Positions 38,966 through 46,666 of a DNA stretch of 64,000 bases are shown here, one piece after another. The position numbers were made by a program, and so were the translations under genes. The DNA comes from an uncultured Thermoplasmata archaeon. Lineage in GTDB: Archaea > Thermoplasmatota > Thermoplasmata > UBA10834. Every line of letters begins with the position of its first letter. The stretch's first letter is position 1. The notes beneath the pieces are model-generated. The model was not told the DNA's origin, made no database searches, and saw nothing but the letters and a program-made list of their open reading frames with translations. The stretch lies in the NCBI GenBank assembly GCA_964644565.1, contig CAZXWO010000001.1, positions 57,727-121,726 of the forward strand. The letters are read 5' to 3'.

Positions 38966-40654
38966 TTGGCCAACACCCTCTTCCTACGACTAACAGAGAG
39001 CATCCTAGACGAGGTCTTGAGCTGGGACCCGACCCAGGCCACCCAGCTCGGGTGGCGCAAGTACGACGCCGTGCTTAAGGACCTGTCCGCTGAGGCATAC
39101 GCCCGCCAGCGGACGAGGATGAGGGAGTTCGTCGAGAGGCTCGAGGGGTTCGGGGACCACGAGCTGTCCGAAGAGGAGATCATCGACAGGGACCTCGCGA
39201 TACAGCTCTTCCGGATGAGGATATTCGAGGCCGAGGAACTCAGGATCCATGAGCGCATGGCACTCGCGACCGAGGACCTCGGGAGCGCCCTCTTCTTCCT
39301 CTTCACGAGGGACGACAGCCCCCTCGAGAGCAGGATAGACTCCATCACCTCCAGGCTCGAGAAGGTCCCTGAGTACCTCGAGCGGTCGAAGTCGTCGCTC
39401 ACCTCGCCGTGCAGGCTGTGGACCGAGATAGCCCTGGAGACGGGGAGGGCGCTCGGGTCGTTCCTGGACACGATCGAGTCGCACGCGGTCAGCATGTTCG
39501 GCAGGACGGACAGGACTGCCAGGCTCTCTTCCGCCGTCAAGGGGGCCAAGGAGGCCCTGGACGGTTACAACAGGTGGCTGGAGGAGGACATGCTCCCCAC
39601 CTCGTCCACCGACACACACGTGTCCGCCGACGTCTTCGAGCGGTACATGAAGCTGAAGGGCTTCGACATCACGCCGGACGAGGCGCTGAAGGTCGGCGAG
39701 GCGCACCTCTTGAAGACCCGCGACCGGATGGCGTGGACCGCGGGGAAGGTCGTCAAGTCCGGCTCCATCCAGGAGGCGCTCGAACTGATGAAGTCCATGC
39801 ACCCCGCCGACTTCGACGAGGTCCTGGCATGCTACAGGAACGACATCCAGAGGGCGCGGGACTTCCTCACCGAACGGGACCTGGCCACGGTGCCGGACGG
39901 GGAGAACCTCAGGGTCATAGAGACGCCGGTCTTCATGCGGCACATCGCCCCCTTCGCCGCGCAGTACGAGCCTGGCAAGTTCACCGGGGACCGCACCGGG
40001 CTGTTCCTGGTGACCCCGAACGACGACCCTGACGCGCTCAAGGACCACTGTTACGCGCTCATCTCCAACACGGCGGTGCACGAGGGGTACCCCGGCCACC
40101 ACCTGCAGGGGATATGCGCGAACACCCACCCCTCCGCGGTGAGGGTGCTGGTCACCTCCATGGACTTCGGGGAGGGCTGGGCGCTCTACTGCGAGGAGCT
40201 CATGCTCGAGCAGGGGTTCAACGACTCGTTCGAGGGCAGGCTCGCCCAGCTCAGCGACCTGATGTTCAGGGTCGTCAGGGTGATGGCGGACGTGAAGCTC
40301 TCGAGGGGGGAGATCGCCCCCGAGGAGGTCGCGGAGATGCTCGTGCGCGAGACGGGCATGCAGCGGGCGGCTGCCCTGAGCGAAGCGAAGAGCTACACCT
40401 ACTGCCCGACCTACTACCTGTCGTACTTCATAGGGAAGCTCGGGCTCCTCCAGCTGCTGGAGGACGTCAAGAGGGCCATGGGCAGCCGGTTCTCGATCAA
40501 GCTCTTCCACGACACGCTCCTGTACGCCGGCTGCCTGCCGATACCGTTCATGCGGCGTGAGATGGCAATGCGCCTCAGGCAGGAGTACGGGATAGAGCTC
40601 GGCGGCCCGAGGGAGCGGCTGGTCGAATACGCTCTCAGAGAGGCGGCCCGCTGA
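38966..40654 (+). CDS. DUF885 family protein (putative metallopeptidase-like)
   Basis: VHEGYPGHHLQ, EGWALYCE, PTYYLSYFIG. Confidence 0.9.
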   Translation: MANTLFLRLTESILDEVLSWDPTQATQLGWRKYDAVLKDLSAEAYARQRTRMREFVERLEGFGDHELSEEEIIDRDLAIQLFRMRIFEAEELRIHERMALATEDLGSALFFLFTRDDSPLESRIDSITSRLEKVPEYLERSKSSLTSPCRLWTEIALETGRALGSFLDTIESHAVSMFGRTDRTARLSSAVKGAKEALDGYNRWLEEDMLPTSSTDTHVSADVFERYMKLKGFDITPDEALKVGEAHLLKTRDRMAWTAGKVVKSGSIQEALELMKSMHPADFDEVLACYRNDIQRARDFLTERDLATVPDGENLRVIETPVFMRHIAPFAAQYEPGKFTGDRTGLFLVTPNDDPDALKDHCYALISNTAVHEGYPGHHLQGICANTHPSAVRVLVTSMDFGEGWALYCEELMLEQGFNDSFEGRLAQLSDLMFRVVRVMADVKLSRGEIAPEEVAEMLVRETGMQRAAALSEAKSYTYCPTYYLSYFIGKLGLLQLLEDVKRAMGSRFSIKLFHDTLLYAGCLPIPFMRREMAMRLRQEYGIELGGPRERLVEYALREAAR

Positions 40655-40665
40655 ACGCGGGGCCC

Positions 40666-43600
40666 TCACGACTCCTTCGTGAGGATGTCGACCCACTCCT
40701 CCTCGCGGATCTCCTCCTCGGTGACCCACGAGCCGGGCTCGAACTCGTCCGACATGAACTTCAGGAGCATGCCCTCGACGCCCTTGACCGACTTCATCGT
40801 CCCGTTCCAGCGCTCGAGCCTCTCCCCGTACCGCTCCTCCACGTCCCTGAGGAGCATCGGTATGGCCTCGAAGACGCCCTTGGGGGGCCATCCCGAGTAG
40901 ATCATGGCCACGTACACGGACTTGCCCTTCTCTATCAGGACGTTCTTGTCTCCTATCTCGAGCTTCTTCAGCCCGACCTCTCCCGCCTGGAAGGAGTCGC
41001 GGACGAACTCCTGCACGGCGGTGAACATCGCGCTGACGACGTCCTTGTCGATGCTCATGTTCTCCTGCCTGGTGACGTGCGCCACGAGCCTGCCGTCGTT
41101 GTGAATCAGGAAGAGGTTCTCGAGGGCGTAGGGCCTCGGCAGCCTGCTGGCCGCGAAGAAGCCGGCCACGCCCGCCGCCAGGACGACGAGCGGGAGGCTG
41201 TACGGGTAGCCGATGGTGTCCGCGGTCGTCTTCTTGAGCGCGATGGTGAATGTGACCGAGTTGGAGCGCGCCCCCTCCTCGTCCTCGACGTATATCGTGA
41301 CGGATATCTCGTCCAGGTCCCCGGGCATGCTCACGTAGAGGTACTCCCCGACCGCGGAGACGAGCGCCGCGGGGGTCGCGGTGACGTTCAGCTGCATCTC
41401 CGGGGTTTCCTTGTCGGAGAAGTACTGTATGACCATCATCTGGAAGTTGCGCGGCCAGCCGGCCAGCTCCTTGTCCCCTATCGGCGCGACGACCGGCGCG
41501 TCGTTCACGGGAGTGACGACCACCGTGACGCTCCATGAGGCCCAGGCGAGGTGCGAGTCCAGGCACTTGAACTCCACCACCTCGTAACCCGACCAGTCGG
41601 CCTCGGCCGAGAAGTTCACGGAGCCGTCCTCGTAGATCGTGACCCTGACCTTCTCGTCCTCGCTCCCGAACTTCACCATGTAGTCGTGCTCGGTGTCGTC
41701 GACGTCGTAGAAGAGCATGTCCAGGTCGAGCGTCCCGTTCAGGTAGCCGTCCTCAGGGAAGGAGATGATGTCCGGGTACGGGACCGGGCTGACGACCGCG
41801 GGGGGGTAGTTGTCGCTCACGGTGACCGTGAAGTTCCCCCAGTTCCCCTCGCCCTCCGGGTCCACGACCCACATCTCCACATCGACGTTGTAGGACCCGG
41901 CATAGGCGCCCCCCGACAGGTCCGCCGGGAACATGAGGAGGATGTCGCCTCCGGAGTACGTGACGTAGGGGCTGTCGAATGCGAAAGTGAGCTCCGCGAA
42001 GGAGTGGTCCGGGTCGCTGACGTACAGCCCCGCGTCGAGCCTGTACTCGACATCGTAGCGTACATGGATCGCGCCGGGGGACGACACCGAGGGCGCGTCG
42101 TTGACGGGGATGACCGTGACTGTCACCGTGTCGGTCTTGAAGGCGCCCGTGGGGTCCACCGCGGTGAAGGTGCCGTCCGTGACGCCGGACCACTCGTACG
42201 GCGCGGACAGCCTGACCTCGTGCGTCGTCTTGTTGATGTCGACGACTATGTTCAGGAAGCCCGTCTTGTAGATGAGTATGTCCTCGTCGACGTCCTCGAA
42301 GTAGTCGTCCAGGTCGAAGACCAGCCTGTACATCTCACCCTCCAGGAGGTCGGGGATGTCTGGCAGTTCGGTCGTCAGGTCCGGGGGCGTGTCGTCCGTC
42401 ACCCAGACGACGATGCTGAGGTACGCGGAGTTGGTCGAATCGGCCGCCATGCTCGAGGGGGCGTCCGTGAGGGTGACCTTCATCGTCTCGAAGTAGCTCT
42501 CGGTCCCGTCCTTCTCCGTGAAGAGGAAGGAGGCTATGAACCCGTCGAACACGACCGATCCCCATTCCGAGGAGGTGACGTACATGGACAGCTCCTCGGG
42601 GGGGTTGTCGACGTCCGACACGTAGTAAGCGAAGTCGAAGGAGTAGAGCATGTCGAACTTGACGTAGTACTCCGTCGGGGGCGAGTGCACGAACACTGGC
42701 CGGTCGTTGACCGGCTGTATGCTCACCACGACGTCCTGGTACGTCGAGTAGCCAGCGAGGTCCCTCACCCAGAGCCTGAAGGTGTCGGTGCCGAACTTGT
42801 CCGGCTGGGTCATGAACAGGACCATGGCCGTCGAGGCCGGGTCGAACGTGACGATGTACAGGGAGTTGTCCACGCCATCCACGTACCACCTGAGGCCCGA
42901 GGTGCCGTTCACGTGGTTCCAGTAGGACGCGAGGCTAAGGGACCACGATGTGTCCTCGTTGGCTATCTGGGCGGGGATCGTGCTCAGCCACGGCCCGTTC
43001 AGGGCGTTCGTCACCGTGACCTGGACGGACGCGCTCAGCAGCCCGGCCGAGACGGTGACGACGCCGGCCTCCGGGATGAACCCAGCGGTGTACAGGACCG
43101 ACGAGCCCGTCCCGGTTATGTGCCCGGAGGTGTTGGTGAACCATATCGGGCTCGAGAGCGGCACGACGTTGTCGTACGAGTCGTATCCCACGGCCGTGAT
43201 CGTGATCGACTGCCCTTCCTTGATGGTGATGGGGCCCGCCGGGACCAGCTCGATCCTGTAGAGGCTGCCTGCGGCCACCGTCACGTCGACGGAGACGTTC
43301 GCTCCCGAGGCCGGGTCCTCGCACCCCACGGTCGCCGTGCCCGCCGAGTCGACGTGGAGCGTCGCGGTGAATCCTGTTGCGTCCAGGGTGCCTATGTCGC
43401 CGTCGAGGGACCACTCCGGGGTCCAGCTGTGGTTCTCATGGCCCAGGGAGTCGTAGCCAGTGACGGTGAACAGCTCCGAGCCGCCGAGGTCGATGTCGAG
43501 CGGGCCCGTCGGGTCGATGGATATCGACACCACGGGGCCGGCGAAGACCGCGACCTGGTCGCTCCAGCCGTAGTGGCCGTTGGAGGAGGCCCTTATGACG

Positions 43601-44859
43601 ATCACATCCTCGCTGACGTCGTACACCTGGTCTGTGATCGTCACGGTCCCGCCCTCGGTCCCGTCGAACTCCACGGTGGAGTTGGACAGCGGCTCCGTCT
43701 TGGGGGTCACCATGTCGATGTCGAAAGGCTCCAGGACAACCGTGCCACGCCAGTTCGTTATGACCGCGTCGAGGGAGTCGAGCGCCGTCACCGTCATCTC
43801 GAAGTCGACGCCGGCGGTCACGGAGGCCGGGGCGGTCACCTGGAAGTGGTCCACGGCGACGACCGATACGGACACGTTCATCCACGTGGGCGAACCGTGG
43901 GCGTCGCTCCCGTTGACCGTGACGGTGTAGGTCCCGCTGCCGAGCGGCCCTACCGCGTGCGAGAAGACCACCCACGACGAGTCCGCCGACGGATCTACGG
44001 CGGCCGTCGACATCGCTGACCTGGGCAACACGACCGTGCCGTTGGAGCTGTATGCCACCGTGCACTCCGCAGGGGCGGTCTCGTACGTGCCGAACGGGTT
44101 GGTCACGTTGGCGACGACGACGATTGGCTCGGTGTCAGAGAACGTGTCCCGTTGTGTGCCTTCGGTGTCCTCCGTCCTCACCTCGGATACCGACACGAAG
44201 TCCAGCACCGGGACCGTGATGTAGGAGTCGAAGTAGTCGTCGTCGTACAGGACCAGGAGGCCGTCGTTGAGCGAATCTCCCCTCATTATCGTCAGGACGA
44301 GCCGGTGCCCGTCGAGGAGGGTGTAGTTCACGGACGGGACCGTGAGATTGTAAGGCTTGAACGCGGAGAAGAAGGGGCCCAGTAGCGGGGTGCTCGCGGT
44401 GCCGATCGTCGTCCACGAATCTGGGGTGGCCCACTGTCCAGGGGCGATGTCTGAGAGCGTGACAGTCATTACGGACGCGGACTCGTTGTCCCTGGACGCC
44501 GCCCACACGCGGAAGTCCACGTCACCGGATATCCTCACGTCCTGGTTGACCTCCGGGTCGAGCGCCCAGAAGTGCCGCCACCTGGCCGAGGGCAGGTTCT
44601 TCCTGATCGTGACCCCCAGGAGCCCGTCCCCGTCGTAGTCGAGGTCTCCCGGGTTCTGAGGATCCGACGTGTTGAGCCAATCGTAGTCGCTGATGGTCGT
44701 CGGCACTCCCTCGTGCATCCGGAAGATCTTGGACCAGGACGGCAGCGACTCCGCCGCCACCGGGGCGGTCGCGGAGTCGAGGAGCGGTATGACCGACGAG
44801 GCGACGATCAGGACCGCGAGCAGGACCGCAGGTGAGCCGCTCCGAACCCGAGCGGGCAT
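40666..44859 (-). CDS. Large cell-surface protein: signal peptide, Ig/cadherin-like repeats, one TM helix and a cytoplasmic longin/roadblock-like domain (start uncertain: 44859, 44886 or 44895)
   Basis: Hydrophobic N-terminus; repeated PVND(A/R)P motifs; TM SLPLVVLAAGVAGFFAA; then LENLFLIHNDGRLV...VVSAMFTAVQEFVRDSF. Confidence 0.85.
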   Translation of the reverse strand: MPARVRSGSPAVLLAVLIVASSVIPLLDSATAPVAAESLPSWSKIFRMHEGVPTTISDYDWLNTSDPQNPGDLDYDGDGLLGVTIRKNLPSARWRHFWALDPEVNQDVRISGDVDFRVWAASRDNESASVMTVTLSDIAPGQWATPDSWTTIGTASTPLLGPFFSAFKPYNLTVPSVNYTLLDGHRLVLTIMRGDSLNDGLLVLYDDDYFDSYITVPVLDFVSVSEVRTEDTEGTQRDTFSDTEPIVVVANVTNPFGTYETAPAECTVAYSSNGTVVLPRSAMSTAAVDPSADSSWVVFSHAVGPLGSGTYTVTVNGSDAHGSPTWMNVSVSVVAVDHFQVTAPASVTAGVDFEMTVTALDSLDAVITNWRGTVVLEPFDIDMVTPKTEPLSNSTVEFDGTEGGTVTITDQVYDVSEDVIVIRASSNGHYGWSDQVAVFAGPVVSISIDPTGPLDIDLGGSELFTVTGYDSLGHENHSWTPEWSLDGDIGTLDATGFTATLHVDSAGTATVGCEDPASGANVSVDVTVAAGSLYRIELVPAGPITIKEGQSITITAVGYDSYDNVVPLSSPIWFTNTSGHITGTGSSVLYTAGFIPEAGVVTVSAGLLSASVQVTVTNALNGPWLSTIPAQIANEDTSWSLSLASYWNHVNGTSGLRWYVDGVDNSLYIVTFDPASTAMVLFMTQPDKFGTDTFRLWVRDLAGYSTYQDVVVSIQPVNDRPVFVHSPPTEYYVKFDMLYSFDFAYYVSDVDNPPEELSMYVTSSEWGSVVFDGFIASFLFTEKDGTESYFETMKVTLTDAPSSMAADSTNSAYLSIVVWVTDDTPPDLTTELPDIPDLLEGEMYRLVFDLDDYFEDVDEDILIYKTGFLNIVVDINKTTHEVRLSAPYEWSGVTDGTFTAVDPTGAFKTDTVTVTVIPVNDAPSVSSPGAIHVRYDVEYRLDAGLYVSDPDHSFAELTFAFDSPYVTYSGGDILLMFPADLSGGAYAGSYNVDVEMWVVDPEGEGNWGNFTVTVSDNYPPAVVSPVPYPDIISFPEDGYLNGTLDLDMLFYDVDDTEHDYMVKFGSEDEKVRVTIYEDGSVNFSAEADWSGYEVVEFKCLDSHLAWASWSVTVVVTPVNDAPVVAPIGDKELAGWPRNFQMMVIQYFSDKETPEMQLNVTATPAALVSAVGEYLYVSMPGDLDEISVTIYVEDEEGARSNSVTFTIALKKTTADTIGYPYSLPLVVLAAGVAGFFAASRLPRPYALENLFLIHNDGRLVAHVTRQENMSIDKDVVSAMFTAVQEFVRDSFQAGEVGLKKLEIGDKNVLIEKGKSVYVAMIYSGWPPKGVFEAIPMLLRDVEERYGERLERWNGTMKSVKGVEGMLLKFMSDEFEPGSWVTEEEIREEEWVDILTKES

Positions 44860-44990
44860 GCTGTCCCCTGCGTGAACCTCCTTCATGCGCCTCAACGGCC
44901 CCTCATGCGATATGCAATTTGATTCATAGCCGTTGCTGGGCTTATAAGCATTCTCAGTTTGTTATCAGGGCTGGTAATGGGTACTGGCGC

Positions 44991-45533
44991 CTACTTGGAG
45001 CCCATCTTCTCCGAGACCGCCAGGCCGAGGGCCTTGAAGACCTCGTCCACGTTCTGCCCCGTCTTGGCGCTGGTCATGAAGGCCTTGGACTTGTACTTCG
45101 CGGCCAGCTCCTGGAGCTCGGACTCCTTTATGACGCGCTCGTTCTCCATGTCGGCCTTGTTCCCCGCGAACACAATGGGGACGTCCCCAGCGACGTCGGT
45201 CAGGGCCTTTATCCAGTACCTGAGCTCCTCGAGGGTCTCCTTGTTGGTCAGGTCGCACACCGCGATGGCGCCGTGGGCGCCGAAGAAGTACGCCTCGCGG
45301 AGCAGCTCCCTGAAGCCCTTCTGGCCCATGATGTCCCAGACGAGCATCATGACCTTCACGTTGACGCCCTGGTCGTTGACCTCGACGATCTTCTTGGTGA
45401 CCTTCGTGCCGATGGTCGCAATGTACCTGTCGTCGAAGACGTCCAGCACGAACCTCTTTATGAGGCTGGTCTTGCCGACGCCCGCGTCTCCGATGAAGCA
45501 TATCTTGACTTTCATTAGGTCATCGTCGCTCAT
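44991..45533 (-). CDS. Rab-like small GTPase
   Basis: G1 GDAGVGKTS, G2 ATIG, G3 WDIMGQ, G4 GNKAD, G5 TSAK; no C-terminal Cys lipidation motif. Confidence 0.92.
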   Translation of the reverse strand: MSDDDLMKVKICFIGDAGVGKTSLIKRFVLDVFDDRYIATIGTKVTKKIVEVNDQGVNVKVMMLVWDIMGQKGFRELLREAYFFGAHGAIAVCDLTNKETLEELRYWIKALTDVAGDVPIVFAGNKADMENERVIKESELQELAAKYKSKAFMTSAKTGQNVDEVFKALGLAVSEKMGSK

Positions 45534-45722
45534 AAGGTCCTCTCCATTCTGGGAGGCTCAAGCATGTTCTTCGGGTAAATAAACTCTGCCCCTCTTAAGC
45601 CTTTGGTAAATGCCTGGCTGGCCGCCATCCGTCTGGCGACGCCTCCTCAGGACTGACCACATGCATGGAATCCGCCGCAAGAGTGATAACCCATGGAGCG
45701 CTACAGGGGGACGAGGTGAGAG

Positions 45723-45877: not shown

Positions 45878-46666
45878 ATGGTTCCGTGCATGATGGATGC
45901 GGACGGGCTGCTCAAACTTTTTAGGGTTTCTGTCAAGGAGTGCATAGCCAGCTCCCGCTCCGTCGCGGTCGCGTACTCGGGCGGGGTGGACAGCGCTGTG
46001 GTCGAGAGGGTCGCCAGGGAGTTCGCGGCGACCACGGGCTACACGTGCGCCGTCCGGGGCTCCCACGACCACGCGCGCGCGCCCCTGATGGCGGCGGAGA
46101 GCGGCGTCGATCTTAGGTTGGTCGACCTGGACAGGCATGGGCTCGTCGAGCTCGTCGGGAAGGCCTGCCGCGTACTGGGCACGGACGACCCCCTGAGGGT
46201 CGCCTACTCCGTGCCGATCATCTGCGTCATCAACGCGTGCGAGGAGGCCGTCCTCCTGGTGGGCAGCGGGGCGGACGAGCTCTTCGGGGGGTATGCGAAG
46301 TACCTGGACCACGAGGACCCGGAGTCCGCGATGGCCTCTGATATCAAAAAGATGCAGATTGAGAACGAACTCCTGAGAAAATATGCCAAATCGGTGGGAA
46401 AGGAACTGGGGGCCCCGTTCGTCTCTGAGGCCCTCGTATCGTTCGCCAGAGGACTCCCCACGGCCCGGAAGCTCGGTGGCGGGGAGCGCAAGATCGTCCT
46501 CAGGGAGGCGGCCAAGGCACTGGGCGTCCTGTCGCACGACGCCCCCAAGAAGGCGGCGCAGTACAGCTCCGGCGTCATGAGGGAGATGAGGCGGATGTCC
46601 AAGGAGGAGGGCAAGGAGCTCCGGGCGTGGACGGCGGAGGCGGCCAAGGGCCGCAGAATCCCTTAA
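45878..46666 (+). CDS. Asparagine synthase C-terminal (PP-loop) domain protein without a glutaminase domain
   Basis: AYSGGVDS, GSGADELFGGY, KIVLREAA, KKAAQYSSG. Confidence 0.88.
   Translation: MVPCMMDADGLLKLFRVSVKECIASSRSVAVAYSGGVDSAVVERVAREFAATTGYTCAVRGSHDHARAPLMAAESGVDLRLVDLDRHGLVELVGKACRVLGTDDPLRVAYSVPIICVINACEEAVLLVGSGADELFGGYAKYLDHEDPESAMASDIKKMQIENELLRKYAKSVGKELGAPFVSEALVSFARGLPTARKLGGGERKIVLREAAKALGVLSHDAPKKAAQYSSGVMREMRRMSKEEGKELRAWTAEAAKGRRIP

What the first reader, a model, noticed from the sequence alone, without database searches (positions are those of the whole stretch)
40666..45533. Candidate transmembrane signalling module: cadherin-like surface receptor with a longin/roadblock-like tail next to a Rab-like GTPase
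Seen: a ~1400-aa secreted protein with PVNDAP Ig/cadherin-like repeats, one TM helix and a ~150-aa cytoplasmic domain (about 41130-40700: LENLFLIHNDGRLVAH...VVSAMFTAVQEFVRDSF...LKKLEIGDKNVLIEKG) lies directly downstream of, and co-oriented with, a small GTPase with Rab-like G1-G5 boxes and no lipidation motif. Established: longin and roadblock domains act as GEF/GAP platforms for small GTPases (MglB-MglA, DENN, TRAPP, Mon1-Ccz1, Ragulator). Inference: the tail has that fold and couples surface contact or Ca2+ sensing to GTPase switching, a eukaryote-like pairing outside Asgard archaea.
Basis: partly seen in the sequence, partly recalled or inferred. Interest (0 to 1): 0.7.

Follow-up and report, generated by a model that had tools for sequence, protein, structure and literature searches.

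The report
Surface receptor with longin-like tail, Rab-like GTPase
An uncultured sediment archaeon (Thermoplasmata) encodes a giant cadherin-like surface protein whose short inner tail is predicted to have the longin fold that eukaryotes use to dock and control Rab switches; a Rab-like GTPase gene sits beside it, and the same tail-GTPase pairing recurs across archaea and bacteria, pointing to an untested membrane-to-GTPase signalling module outside eukaryotes and Asgard archaea.

Summary
ORF 40666-44895 (-) encodes a 1409-aa surface protein: signal/anchor, acidic cadherin-like ectodomain, one TM helix, 160-aa cytoplasmic tail. A 180-aa Ras/Rab-like GTPase (44991-45533, -) lies about 100 nt upstream on the same strand.

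The tail core (40753-41130) matches no Pfam, NCBIfam or PDB sequence. It nevertheless belongs to a large unnamed family (3787 clusters at 50% identity). AlphaFold2 (pLDDT 86) gives the order b-b-a-b-b-b-a-a. All top Foldseek hits are longin or roadblock domains (zeta-COP, sigma/mu-adaptin, Mon1-Ccz1, LAMTOR, MglB, TRAPP).

The link to the GTPase is strong:
- 13 of 16 orthologous loci keep the GTPase directly upstream.
- Other archaeal paralogues and 9 of 10 bacterial loci have it directly downstream.
- In 151 Thermoplasmatota genomes, 26 of 27 domain-positive genomes hold all 26 strong Ras-like hits.

The bacterial loci fit the uncharacterised "Group 1 Rup" operons of Wuichet and Sogaard-Andersen (2014).

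Most likely the juxtamembrane longin-like domain is the membrane docking and regulatory platform for the soluble GTPase. Binding, dimerisation, GEF versus GAP activity and signal direction are all untested. I rate it a new variant of a known kind (longin/roadblock platform plus small GTPase).

The parts
44991..45533 (-). Soluble Rab-like (Rup-type) small GTPase, 180 aa. Complete G1-G5 including the catalytic Gln (DIMGQ). No lipidation motif.
   Evidence: Pfam Ras 2.2e-38. Best PDB sequence hits are Rabs. Motifs located. Orthologues are 82-97% identical.
44896..44990 (-). Spacer between the GTPase and receptor genes. Contains a TATA-like CTTATAAG at 44941-44948, so the receptor may also have its own promoter.
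   Evidence: Read directly from the sequence. Function not tested.
40666..44895 (-). Type-I single-pass surface protein, 1409 aa (probable start ATG 44886, giving 1406 aa).
   Evidence: ORF. More than 170 full-length orthologues of about 1400 aa in Thermoplasmata MAGs.
44779..44829 (-). N-terminal hydrophobic signal/anchor segment AVLLAVLIVASSVIPLL.
   Evidence: Translation. Assignment by inspection.
41221..42978 (-). Membrane-proximal half of the ectodomain (residues 640-1225). A chain of cadherin-like beta-sandwich domains with PVND[RA]P junction motifs at 42703-42711, 42097-42105 and 41500-41508.
   Evidence: AF2 pLDDT 86.5. Foldseek top hits are protocadherin/cadherin ectodomains, E about 1e-22. 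Motifs located.
41146..41199 (-). Single transmembrane helix SLPLVVLAAGVAGFFAAS.
   Evidence: Translation. 61% identity among orthologues.
40753..41130 (-). Cytoplasmic juxtamembrane longin-like domain (residues 1256-1381), with order b1 b2 a1 b3 b4 b5 a2 a3. Family-wide invariant residues are G1268, M1290, A1293, Q1295 and G1335. Helix a1 (motif MFTAVQEFVRDSF) is the most conserved element.
   Evidence: AF2 pLDDT 85.9, pTM 0.78. Foldseek gives 34 hits at E<=1e-3, all longin/roadblock. 3787 family clusters. Conservation. 77% identity among orthologues against 42-53% for the ectodomain.
40672..40719 (-). Acidic C-terminal helix EEEIREEEWVDILTKE. Specific to the orthologous group and not part of the family core.
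   Evidence: Predicted helix 144-159 of the tail. 59% identity among orthologues. Near-zero family-wide conservation.

Best explanation
The two genes encode a membrane receptor/adhesin and its dedicated small GTPase.

Anatomy. The receptor displays a long, acidic, glycosylation-rich ectodomain that ends in cadherin-like beta-sandwich domains. It crosses the membrane once. About six residues after the membrane it folds into a 130-aa domain of longin topology. The GTPase is soluble, has a complete Ras/Rab-type active site, and has no membrane anchor of its own.

Proposed mechanism. The juxtamembrane longin-like domain is the docking platform that brings the GTPase to the membrane and sets its nucleotide state. 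In all solved longin/roadblock platforms, two domains pair through b3/a1 and the GTPase sits on the face carrying the single helix a1. In this family that helix is by far the most conserved element. Clustering or a conformational change of the ectodomains (adhesion, ligand, possibly Ca2+) would then control whether a competent tail dimer forms, and hence whether the GTPase is recruited and switched. I consider GEF-like activation somewhat more likely than GAP activity.

Network. Most genomes carry several to many such receptors with different ectodomains but fewer GTPases. This suggests arrays of sensors converging on shared switches.

Shown here: gene structure, predicted folds, conservation pattern, genomic linkage and phyletic co-occurrence. 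Inferred: physical binding, dimerisation, orientation of the conserved face, direction of signalling, and GEF versus GAP.
For: Fold:
- The AF2 model of the tail has pLDDT 85.9 and pTM 0.78, with element order b-b-a-b-b-b-a-a.
- All 34 Foldseek hits at E<=1e-3 are longin or roadblock domains. Several come from complexes with their GTPases (Mon1-Ccz1-Ypt7, MglA-MglB, Arf1-coatomer, Ragulator-Rag). TM normalised to the query is 0.27-0.57.
- 9 of 73 family members give weak Robl_LC7 hits and one gives a weak Fuz_longin_1 hit.

Linkage:
- In the same genome, a 201-aa membrane protein made of two TM helices plus this domain lies directly upstream of a 275-aa Ras-like GTPase on contig C3.
- Orthologous loci: 13 of 16 have the GTPase 0-137 nt upstream.
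- Other archaeal members: 13 of 54 have an adjacent GTPase, in three orientations.
- Bacterial loci: 9 of 10 have the GTPase 9-35 nt downstream.

Phyletic profile in 151 Thermoplasmatota genomes:
- The domain occurs in 27 genomes and strong Ras hits (E<=1e-30) in 26; the overlap is 26.
- No genome has a strong Ras hit without the domain.

Selection:
- The tail core is 77% identical among orthologues and the GTPase 82-97%, against 42-53% for the ectodomain.
- Helix a1 is the most conserved element (3.1 bits against 1.6 for a2/a3). It is the helix of the canonical GTPase-binding top face and dimer interface (Levine et al. 2013, PMC3747258).

Dimer or heterodimer hints:
- Tandem two-domain proteins exist (P0144, P0147, P0149, P0154, P0170).
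- Loci exist with two domain genes next to one GTPase (L070; G027:C79).

The GTPase has no lipid anchor, so it needs a protein partner to act at the membrane.
Against:
- Homology to longin/roadblock rests on a predicted fold only. There is no Pfam, NCBIfam or PDB sequence match for the window's tail.
- The profile-profile comparison with canonical roadblock proteins of related genomes is insignificant (probability 3.9%).
- TM-scores are moderate.
- About three quarters of non-orthologous archaeal family members have no GTPase next to them (5 of 22 loci with full flanks).
- Two of the four to five copies in this genome (C4, C8) are orphans.
- No natural fusion of the domain with a GTPase was found.
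- Longin/roadblock platforms are usually not catalytic by themselves. A two-gene system may therefore lack the catalytic partner, or the tail may be only an anchor or effector.
- A TATA-like element between the genes means co-transcription is not certain.
Confidence: 0.65

Rival explanations
1. Off-switch model. The longin-like tail is a GAP or co-GAP. It stimulates hydrolysis either by repositioning the GTPase's own catalytic residues, as MglB does, or by supplying its invariant glutamine (Q1295 on helix a1) in trans.
For: MglB and the FLCN/NPRL2/C9orf72 longin complexes act as GAPs. The bacterial partner GTPases lack the G3 glutamine (WDVAGT, WDIAGE). Wuichet and Sogaard-Andersen reported the same for Group 1 Rup and postulated a glutamine supplied in trans. 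The domain has a glutamine that is invariant in 73 diverse archaeal and bacterial members. By helical periodicity this residue lies on the non-hydrophobic side of a1.
Against: The archaeal GTPases, including the one in the window, keep their own G3 glutamine, yet Q1295 is still invariant. Its exposure was not measured because no coordinates were available. Longin/roadblock platforms normally do not reach the nucleotide. The 2014 authors assigned the trans-glutamine to a different protein, the N-terminus of the output kinase.
Confidence: 0.2
2. Inside-out or effector model. The GTPase is upstream and the tail is its effector. The tail binds GTPase-GTP, as the SRX longin-like domain of SR-alpha binds SR-beta-GTP, and this controls clustering, localisation, turnover or adhesiveness of the surface protein.
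For: The longin-like SRX domain is a monomeric effector-type binder of a GTPase. Many receptors per GTPase (for example 12:1, 6:1 and 5:1 in G146, G077/G083 and G028) fit one switch controlling many surface proteins as well as they fit many sensors feeding one switch. No output component is encoded in the archaeal two-gene loci.
Against: In the bacterial homologues the operon continues into a histidine kinase or c-di-GMP enzyme. That argues for information flowing from the membrane protein through the GTPase to an output. There is no evidence either way in archaea.
Confidence: 0.2
3. Scaffold-only model. The tail is a juxtamembrane oligomerisation or membrane-binding module that never touches the GTPase. 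Adjacency would reflect co-regulation within a broader envelope or adhesion pathway, with other partners such as DUF835 proteins.
For: Most family members are not adjacent to a GTPase. The domain is fused to DUF835 in 8 of 148 representative proteins and in L064. No fusions to GTPases were found.
Against: There is near-perfect phyletic co-occurrence with Ras-like GTPases. Adjacency has been retained across archaea and bacteria in several gene orders. The fold is one whose recurrent role is to bind small GTPases. A DUF835 protein itself sits next to a paralogous GTPase in this genome.
Confidence: 0.1
4. Chance adjacency or a spurious ORF.
For: None found.
Against: Both ORFs have GC3 above 0.9, like other genes of this genome. 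There are hundreds of homologues. The pairing recurs far above the background of about 6 GTPase genes per 1.8 Mb.
Confidence: 0.01

Closest known systems
[quoted passage not shown]
   Same: The bacterial loci recovered with the tail profile have this description. An example is L080 from Halochromatium, with a 183-aa coiled-coil protein, a 647-aa protein carrying the domain then a TM helix then a weak OmpA match, a Ras-family GTPase lacking the G3 Gln, and a hybrid kinase. The domain is homologous to the window's tail (34-40% identity, tblastn E about 1e-21). It is cytoplasmic and juxtamembrane in both.
   Different: In the window the polarity is reversed: ectodomain, then TM, then the domain at the C-terminus. 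The outer part is cadherin-like rather than OmpA. The GTPase keeps its catalytic Gln. No coiled-coil gene or output gene is present. I could not compare directly with the 2014 paper's own proteins, so the match is to its description. No Rup system has been characterised experimentally.
Eukaryotic and Asgard longin-domain platforms (Mon1-Ccz1 for Rab7/Ypt7, TRAPP Bet5/Trs23 for Rab1, sigma/mu-adaptin and zeta-COP small chains, DENN, FLCN/NPRL)
   Same: Same predicted topology b-b-a-b-b-b-a-a and the best structural matches. The partner is a Rab-like GTPase. The conservation hot-spot is on helix a1, the top face used for GTPase binding and dimerisation.
   Different: There is no detectable sequence relationship. 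The domain is directly membrane-anchored as the tail of a surface protein. It occurs in non-Asgard archaea and in bacteria. No accessory catalytic subunits are evident.
MglA-MglB, and the actinobacterial conservon (CvnA sensor kinase, CvnB roadblock, CvnC, CvnD GTPase)
   Same: These are prokaryotic pairings of a roadblock-superfamily protein with a small GTPase. In the conservon they are coupled to a membrane sensor. MglB appears among the structural hits.
   Different: MglB and CvnB are soluble roadblock proteins with an N-terminal helix that match Pfam Robl_LC7. The tail lacks that helix and that match. The GTPases there are MglA-type, not Ras/Rab-type. This genome has two canonical roadblock genes elsewhere, not next to its Ras-like GTPases.
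SR-alpha SRX domain with SR-beta
   Same: A longin-like domain binds a small GTPase at a membrane. It shows that a single such domain can act as an effector-type binder.
   Different: In SR the GTPase is the membrane-anchored partner and the longin-like domain is soluble. Here it is the other way round. No homology is detectable.

Membership tests
Longin domain (SNARE-like fold) | Secondary-structure order b1-b2-a1-b3-b4-b5-a2-a3, with no helix before b1 | tested here: met
   DSSP of the AF2 model gives E8-16, E21-26, H35-54, E62-65, E68-74, E78-85, H90-112, H118-132. This is a prediction, not an experimental structure.
Longin domain (SNARE-like fold) | Structural similarity to solved longin domains | tested here: met
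   Top Foldseek hits are zeta-COP, sigma/mu-adaptin, Mon1, Ccz1 and Bet5/Trs23. E ranges from 2e-5 to 1e-3, probability 1.00, TM 0.42-0.57.
Longin domain (SNARE-like fold) | Match to a curated longin sequence family | tested here: not met
   The tail has no Pfam or NCBIfam hit at E<=1. Only 1 of 73 relatives gives Fuz_longin_1, at E=0.04.
Longin domain (SNARE-like fold) | Forms a b3/a1 dimer whose top face binds a small GTPase | not testable with these tools
   No multimer prediction was available. Indirect evidence only: a1 is the most conserved element, and tandem or paired domain genes exist.
Roadblock/LC7 (MglB-type) | An N-terminal helix precedes b1 (a-b-b-a-b-b-b) | tested here: not met
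   b1 starts 7 residues after the TM helix, and two helices follow b5 instead.
Roadblock/LC7 (MglB-type) | Sequence membership in Pfam Robl_LC7 | tested here: not met
   The window's tail has no hit. 9 of 73 relatives are sub-threshold, best E=0.0027. hhalign against roadblock proteins of related genomes gives probability 3.9%.
Group 1 Rup system | The Rup GTPase lacks the G3 glutamine | tested here: not met
   The window GTPase has DIMGQ. The bacterial loci L080 and L088 do lack it.
Group 1 Rup system | Neighbouring membrane protein with the unnamed domain followed by a TM helix and OmpA | tested here: not met
   The homologous domain is present. The architecture differs: ectodomain, TM, then the domain, with no OmpA.
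Group 1 Rup system | Coiled-coil protein and a kinase or c-di-GMP output gene in the operon | tested here: not met
   Only two co-oriented genes are present. The flanking genes are divergent or convergent.
Rab family | Ras-superfamily G1-G5 motifs with closest similarity to Rabs | tested here: met
   Pfam Ras 2e-38. All 60 listed PDB sequence hits are Rabs or Ypts.
Rab family | C-terminal cysteine prenylation motif | tested here: not met
   The protein ends ...AVSEKMGSK with no Cys.
Rab family | RabF1-F5 family motifs | tested here: inconclusive
   By eye there are only partial matches: IGTKV against IGVDF, and YFFGA against YYRGA. No formal classifier was run.
Cadherin-like surface protein | Tandem cadherin-type beta-sandwich domains | tested here: met
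   AF2 pLDDT 86.5. Top Foldseek hits are protocadherin and classical cadherin ectodomains. PVND[RA]P junction motifs are present.
Cadherin-like surface protein | Ca2+ binding at the domain junctions | not testable with these tools
   Only motif resemblance (PVNDAP, DxDxD) is available.

The most novel reading that the evidence does not exclude
Thermoplasmatota and several bacterial phyla possess a large, unnamed class of transmembrane receptors built on one principle. Interchangeable ectodomains (cadherin-like, CARDB, Ig-like, OmpA) sit on a common juxtamembrane longin-type domain. When brought together by ligand or contact, this domain forms the dimeric platform that directly activates a dedicated Rab-like GTPase, so the receptor itself is the GEF. 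If so, the longin-Rab regulatory logic of eukaryotic membrane traffic did not arise in Asgard archaea or eukaryotes. It would descend from, or have been acquired together with, such prokaryotic Rup-type receptor-GTPase modules.
Probability: 0.2. Interest if true: 0.85.

Novelty: new variant of a known kind. Interest (0 to 1): 0.68.

Why it matters
Small Ras/Rab-like GTPases of prokaryotes outside the MglA family have no known regulators or functions. Longin domains were long held to be absent from prokaryotes (Levine et al. 2013) and have since been discussed only for Asgard archaea.

This locus gives the unnamed 'unknown domain' of Rup operons a fold and a testable role. The family is very large and is fused to surface receptors in non-Asgard archaea. 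The system has only two components, which suits biochemistry: a soluble 160-aa tail and a 180-aa GTPase.

If binding and regulation are confirmed, it would be a simple prokaryotic receptor-to-small-GTPase pathway. It would also be a new data point on where the longin-Rab partnership of eukaryotic trafficking came from.

Tried and rejected
1. Sequence-family assignment of the tail failed. Pfam and NCBIfam gave no hit at E<=1. A PDB sequence-profile search gave nothing below E=0.16.

2. The profile-profile comparison with canonical roadblock proteins from related genomes gave probability 3.9%. Homology is therefore not demonstrable by sequence.

3. I searched for natural fusions of the domain with a GTPase (Rosetta stone). 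There were none among 269 family proteins. A search with a concatenated tail+GTPase query returned none in its top 120, which were all single-domain GTPase orthologues. This is inconclusive because only the top of the list is visible.

4. A word-indexed search with the tail alone returned only fragments of orthologues. The exhaustive representative search was needed to see the family.

5. The search for related loci with the diverse alignment A1 failed for lack of a conserved stretch. It worked with the 6-sequence alignment A2.

6. Transcript evidence: only DNA sediment metagenomes hold the locus, so co-transcription could not be checked.

7. Contig C60 looked like a third tail-GTPase pair. 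It is a near-duplicate of the C3 locus with the same flanking genes, and the domain gene carries an in-frame TGA. It is a strain variant or assembly duplicate, so I do not count it as independent.

8. Literature searches for later work on Rup systems, or for longin domains in Thermoplasmatota, found nothing relevant.

Solvent exposure of Q1295 and electrostatics of the two faces could not be computed.
Full report
**What is there**

On the minus strand of the window lie two co-oriented ORFs separated by about 100 nt: 44991-45533 (180 aa) and 40666-44895 (1409 aa from a TTG). The copy in the protein database starts at the ATG at 44886 and is 1406 aa. Both have third-position GC above 0.9, like the other genes of this 64% GC genome. 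The flanking genes are divergent (45878-46666, +) and convergent (38966-40654, +), so the unit is these two genes. The window is part of contig C1 of a 1.78-Mb, 81%-complete Thermoplasmata MAG. Near-identical DNA is found only in sediment metagenomes.

**The GTPase**

- It matches Pfam Ras at E=2.2e-38 and NCBIfam small_GTP.
- Its motifs are G1 GDAGVGKT (15-22), switch I ATIG (39-42), G3 DIMGQ (67-71, catalytic Gln present), G4 NKAD (125-128) and G5 SAK (155-157).
- The C-terminus is ...EKMGSK with no cysteine.
- By sequence, all 60 listed solved structures are Rabs or Ypts, with E from 1e-29 to 1e-25.
- It is therefore Rab-like in sequence, soluble and without a lipid anchor. It is not a bona fide Rab, because the prenylation motif is absent and the RabF motifs are only partial.
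- Orthologues in other MAGs are 82-97% identical.

**The surface protein**

- It begins with a hydrophobic segment (AVLLAVLIVASSVIPLL).
- A very acidic ectodomain of about 1200 aa follows (D+E 14.5%, K+R 3.8%), with 18 N-x-S/T sequons and three PVND[RA]P motifs spaced about 200 aa apart.
- It then has one TM helix (SLPLVVLAAGVAGFFAAS, residues 1233-1250) and a 160-aa tail.
- Sequence-family hits for the ectodomain are below threshold: Cadherin_4 E=0.014, Big_9, and tandem-95 repeat at 64 bits against a cut-off of 90.
- An AF2 model of residues 640-1225, built on 15 orthologues, has pLDDT 86.5 and is a string of beta-sandwich domains.
- Its best Foldseek matches are protocadherin and classical cadherin ectodomains, E 4e-22 to 1e-15.
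- 'Cadherin-like' is thus justified at fold level. Ca2+ binding remains only a motif resemblance.

**The tail**

It has no hit in Pfam or NCBIfam at E<=1. A profile of the family finds nothing in PDB sequences below E=0.16. It is nonetheless the most conserved part of the protein. Among 29 full-length orthologues the tail core is 77% identical, against 42-53% for the ectodomain.

An exhaustive search of 1.84 billion representative proteins found 3787 clusters at E<=1e-3 and 1526 at E<=1e-10. In these proteins the core of about 130 aa sits in several contexts:
- mostly at the C-terminus of large proteins (500-2400 aa);
- in small proteins of about 200 aa;
- in tandem pairs (P0144 and four similar clusters);
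- three times in giant proteins of 2170-2190 aa, alternating with CARDB domains.

AlphaFold2 with a 73-sequence alignment (the window's tail plus diverse archaeal and bacterial members) gives pLDDT 85.9 and pTM 0.78. The elements are b1 8-16, b2 21-26, a1 35-54, b3 62-65, b4 68-74, b5 78-85, a2 90-112, a3 118-132, plus an orthologue-specific acidic helix at 144-159. This is the longin order. There is no helix before b1, and two helices follow b5. Roadblock domains are the circular permutation with an N-terminal helix.

Foldseek against the PDB returns 34 matches at E<=1e-3, all from the longin/roadblock superfamily:
- zeta-COP, sigma- and mu-adaptin N-domains, Mon1 and Ccz1;
- LAMTOR2/3 and MglB;
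- TRAPP Bet5/Trs23 follows just below that cut-off, at E=1.1e-3.

TM normalised to the query is 0.27-0.57. Nine of 73 family members give weak Robl_LC7 hits (best E=0.0027) and one a weak Fuz_longin_1 hit. A profile-profile comparison with canonical roadblock proteins of related genomes is not significant, at 3.9% probability, although the register is topologically sensible. The fold assignment therefore rests on a confident prediction, not on demonstrable sequence homology.

**Where the conservation lies**

Over 63 non-orthologous members, helix a1 carries 3.1 bits per column. The strands carry 2.1-2.5 bits and a2/a3 carry 1.6 bits.
- Invariant residues are G1268 (b1-b2 hairpin), M1290, A1293 and Q1295 (a1), and G1335 (after b5).
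- Conserved in at least 80% of members are T1292, F1297, D1300, F1302, D1283, L1309, G1315, W1363 and G1365, among others.

In solved longin/roadblock platforms, the helix between b2 and b3 forms both the dimer contact and the 'top' face on which the GTPase sits. The opposite face, with two helices per domain, often faces membranes (Levine et al. 2013, PMC3747258). Here b1 starts about six residues after the TM helix. A geometry with a2/a3 towards the membrane and the conserved a1 towards the cytosol is therefore plausible. That is an inference.

**Is the pairing real?**

Same genome. The domain occurs in four to five genes and Ras-like GTPases in five to six. On contig C3, a 201-aa protein made of two TM helices plus the domain lies directly upstream of a 275-aa Ras-like GTPase. 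Contig C60 repeats that locus and is not independent. Two other large surface proteins with the tail (C4, 1109 aa; C8, 1649 aa) and three GTPases (C2, C30, C45) are unpaired.

Related loci. I examined 80 loci from one-genome-per-species contigs:
- Orthologous group: 13 of 16 loci have the GTPase 0-137 nt upstream on the same strand. The rest are truncated contigs.
- More distant relatives of the same arrangement (L028, L029, L032, L045, L050, L054, L086; tail 35-42% identical) keep it too.
- Other archaeal family members: 13 of 54 have an adjacent GTPase (5 of 22 loci with full flanks), either upstream or downstream.
- Bacterial loci (Gammaproteobacteria, Mariprofundaceae, Binatia, Thermodesulfobacteriota and a 'Deltaproteobacteria' MAG): 9 of 10 have the GTPase 9-35 nt downstream.

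Phyletic profile. In 151 genomes sampled evenly from the phylum:
- The domain is present in 27 genomes and strong Ras-family hits (E<=1e-30) in 26.
- All 26 strong-Ras genomes are domain-positive.
- The one domain-positive genome without Ras has only a weak domain hit (1e-15).
- Eighteen other genomes have a single weak Ras hit (1e-11 to 1e-24) and no domain.
- Both features are absent from most families of the window's own class and present together in about 15 families.
- Copy numbers reach 27 for the domain and 20 for the GTPase. Receptors often outnumber GTPases, for example 12:1, 6:1, 6:1 and 5:1.

These genomes are related, so the counts are not independent events. Even so, the combination excludes chance and argues for a direct functional link. 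It comprises gain and loss in step, several gene orders, and retention across two domains of life.

**Relation to known systems**

The bacterial loci fit the 'Group 1 Rup' neighbourhoods described by Wuichet and Sogaard-Andersen (PMC4316618). In L080 (Halochromatium) the order is:
- a 183-aa coiled-coil protein;
- a 647-aa protein with the domain, then a TM helix and a weak C-terminal OmpA match;
- a Ras-family GTPase whose G3 motif lacks the glutamine (WDVAGT);
- a hybrid histidine kinase.

JGI's annotation of tail fragments as 'OOP family OmpA-OmpF porin' probably reflects these bacterial relatives. The 2014 paper called the domain 'conserved, of unknown function, not matching Pfam'. I found no later characterisation.

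The archaeal system in the window is related but is not a member of that group. Its polarity is reversed, the outer part is cadherin-like, the GTPase keeps its glutamine, and there is no coiled-coil or output gene. It is also distinct from MglA-MglB and from the conservon. This genome has two canonical Robl_LC7 genes elsewhere, not adjacent to its Ras-like GTPases.

**Mechanism**

The best-supported reading is that the juxtamembrane longin-like domain is the membrane docking and regulatory platform of the soluble GTPase. This rests on four observations:
- the fold and the recurrent role of that fold;
- the location of conservation on the canonical GTPase-binding helix;
- the GTPase's lack of any membrane anchor;
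- the genomic and phyletic linkage.

Dimerisation is hinted at only by tandem-domain proteins and by loci with two domain genes beside one GTPase. The direction of signalling and the biochemical effect (GEF, GAP or effector) are open.

I lean to outside-in signalling with GEF-like activation. Single-pass receptors commonly signal by clustering, longin/roadblock platforms act as dimers and most are GEF platforms, and the bacterial operons end in an output enzyme.

A notable alternative is a GAP role using the invariant Q1295. The bacterial partner GTPases lack their own catalytic glutamine, and a glutamine supplied in trans was postulated in 2014. Against this, the archaeal GTPases have their own glutamine.

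**Caveats**

- No interaction was computed or measured.
- The fold is predicted, and sequence homology to longin or roadblock is not demonstrable.
- Most paralogues are not adjacent to a GTPase.
- No domain-GTPase fusion was found.
- A TATA-like element in the spacer leaves co-transcription open.

Earlier notes of this scan on orthologous loci in four other genomes reached the same reading. They are not independent evidence, but I re-derived each of their claims here.

**Verdict**

The system is a new variant of a known kind (longin/roadblock platform plus small GTPase). It is an unnamed, very large family of membrane-anchored longin-topology domains, here fused to a cadherin-like receptor in a non-Asgard archaeon.

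Noticed in passing
own genome, contig C45:5474-7047 (outside the window): A paralogous Ras-like GTPase (C45:6403-7047, -) lies directly upstream of a 310-aa protein with a V4R domain (Pfam 1.9e-11) and DUF835 (3.9e-29). V4R is the prokaryotic relative of TRAPP Bet3, so this is a second 'TRAPP-flavoured' GTPase pairing in the same genome.
   Followed up: partly
family members P0182, P0191, P0192, P0194, P0200, P0211, P0224, P0262; locus L064:3982-4851: DUF835 is fused to the longin-like domain in 8 of 148 representative proteins and in L064. This genome has 12 DUF835 copies, one at the C-terminus of a 1632-aa ORF (C5:28612-28986). DUF835 may be a third component or an alternative cytoplasmic module of the same network.
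   Followed up: partly
loci L080:7490-7957, L088:6530-6994 versus window 44991-45533: Bacterial partner GTPases lack the G3 catalytic glutamine (WDVAGT, WDIAGE), whereas the archaeal ones keep it (WDIMGQ). The longin-like domain has a glutamine that is invariant in both (Q1295, codon 41011-41013).
   Followed up: partly
own genome, contig C60:3231-5866 versus C3:74051-76740: C60 is a near-duplicate of the C3 tail-domain/GTPase locus with the same neighbours. The domain gene has an in-frame TGA and sits in a longer open frame. This is strain heterogeneity or an assembly duplicate in the MAG.
   Followed up: partly
window 44941-44948 (minus strand) and 45570-45580: TATA-like elements are present: CTTATAAG about 55 nt upstream of the receptor ATG, and GTTTATTTAC about 45 nt upstream of the GTPase ATG. 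The two genes may have separate promoters.
   Followed up: no
own genome C30:4761-6505: Another paralogous Ras-like GTPase lies divergently next to a 371-aa protein that looks coiled-coil. This recalls the coiled-coil gene of bacterial Rup operons.
   Followed up: no
loci L031, L033 (ORFs of about 2180 aa), protein P0122: Giant proteins carry three copies of the longin-like domain at 505-aa spacing, alternating with CARDB domains. This implies a multi-pass arrangement with three cytoplasmic platforms in one chain.
   Followed up: no
own genome C4:46175-46438 and C11:2996-3214: Two canonical Roadblock/LC7 genes are conserved in nearly all relatives, at two per genome. This includes lineages without the longin-like domain, so they form a separate system.
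   Followed up: no
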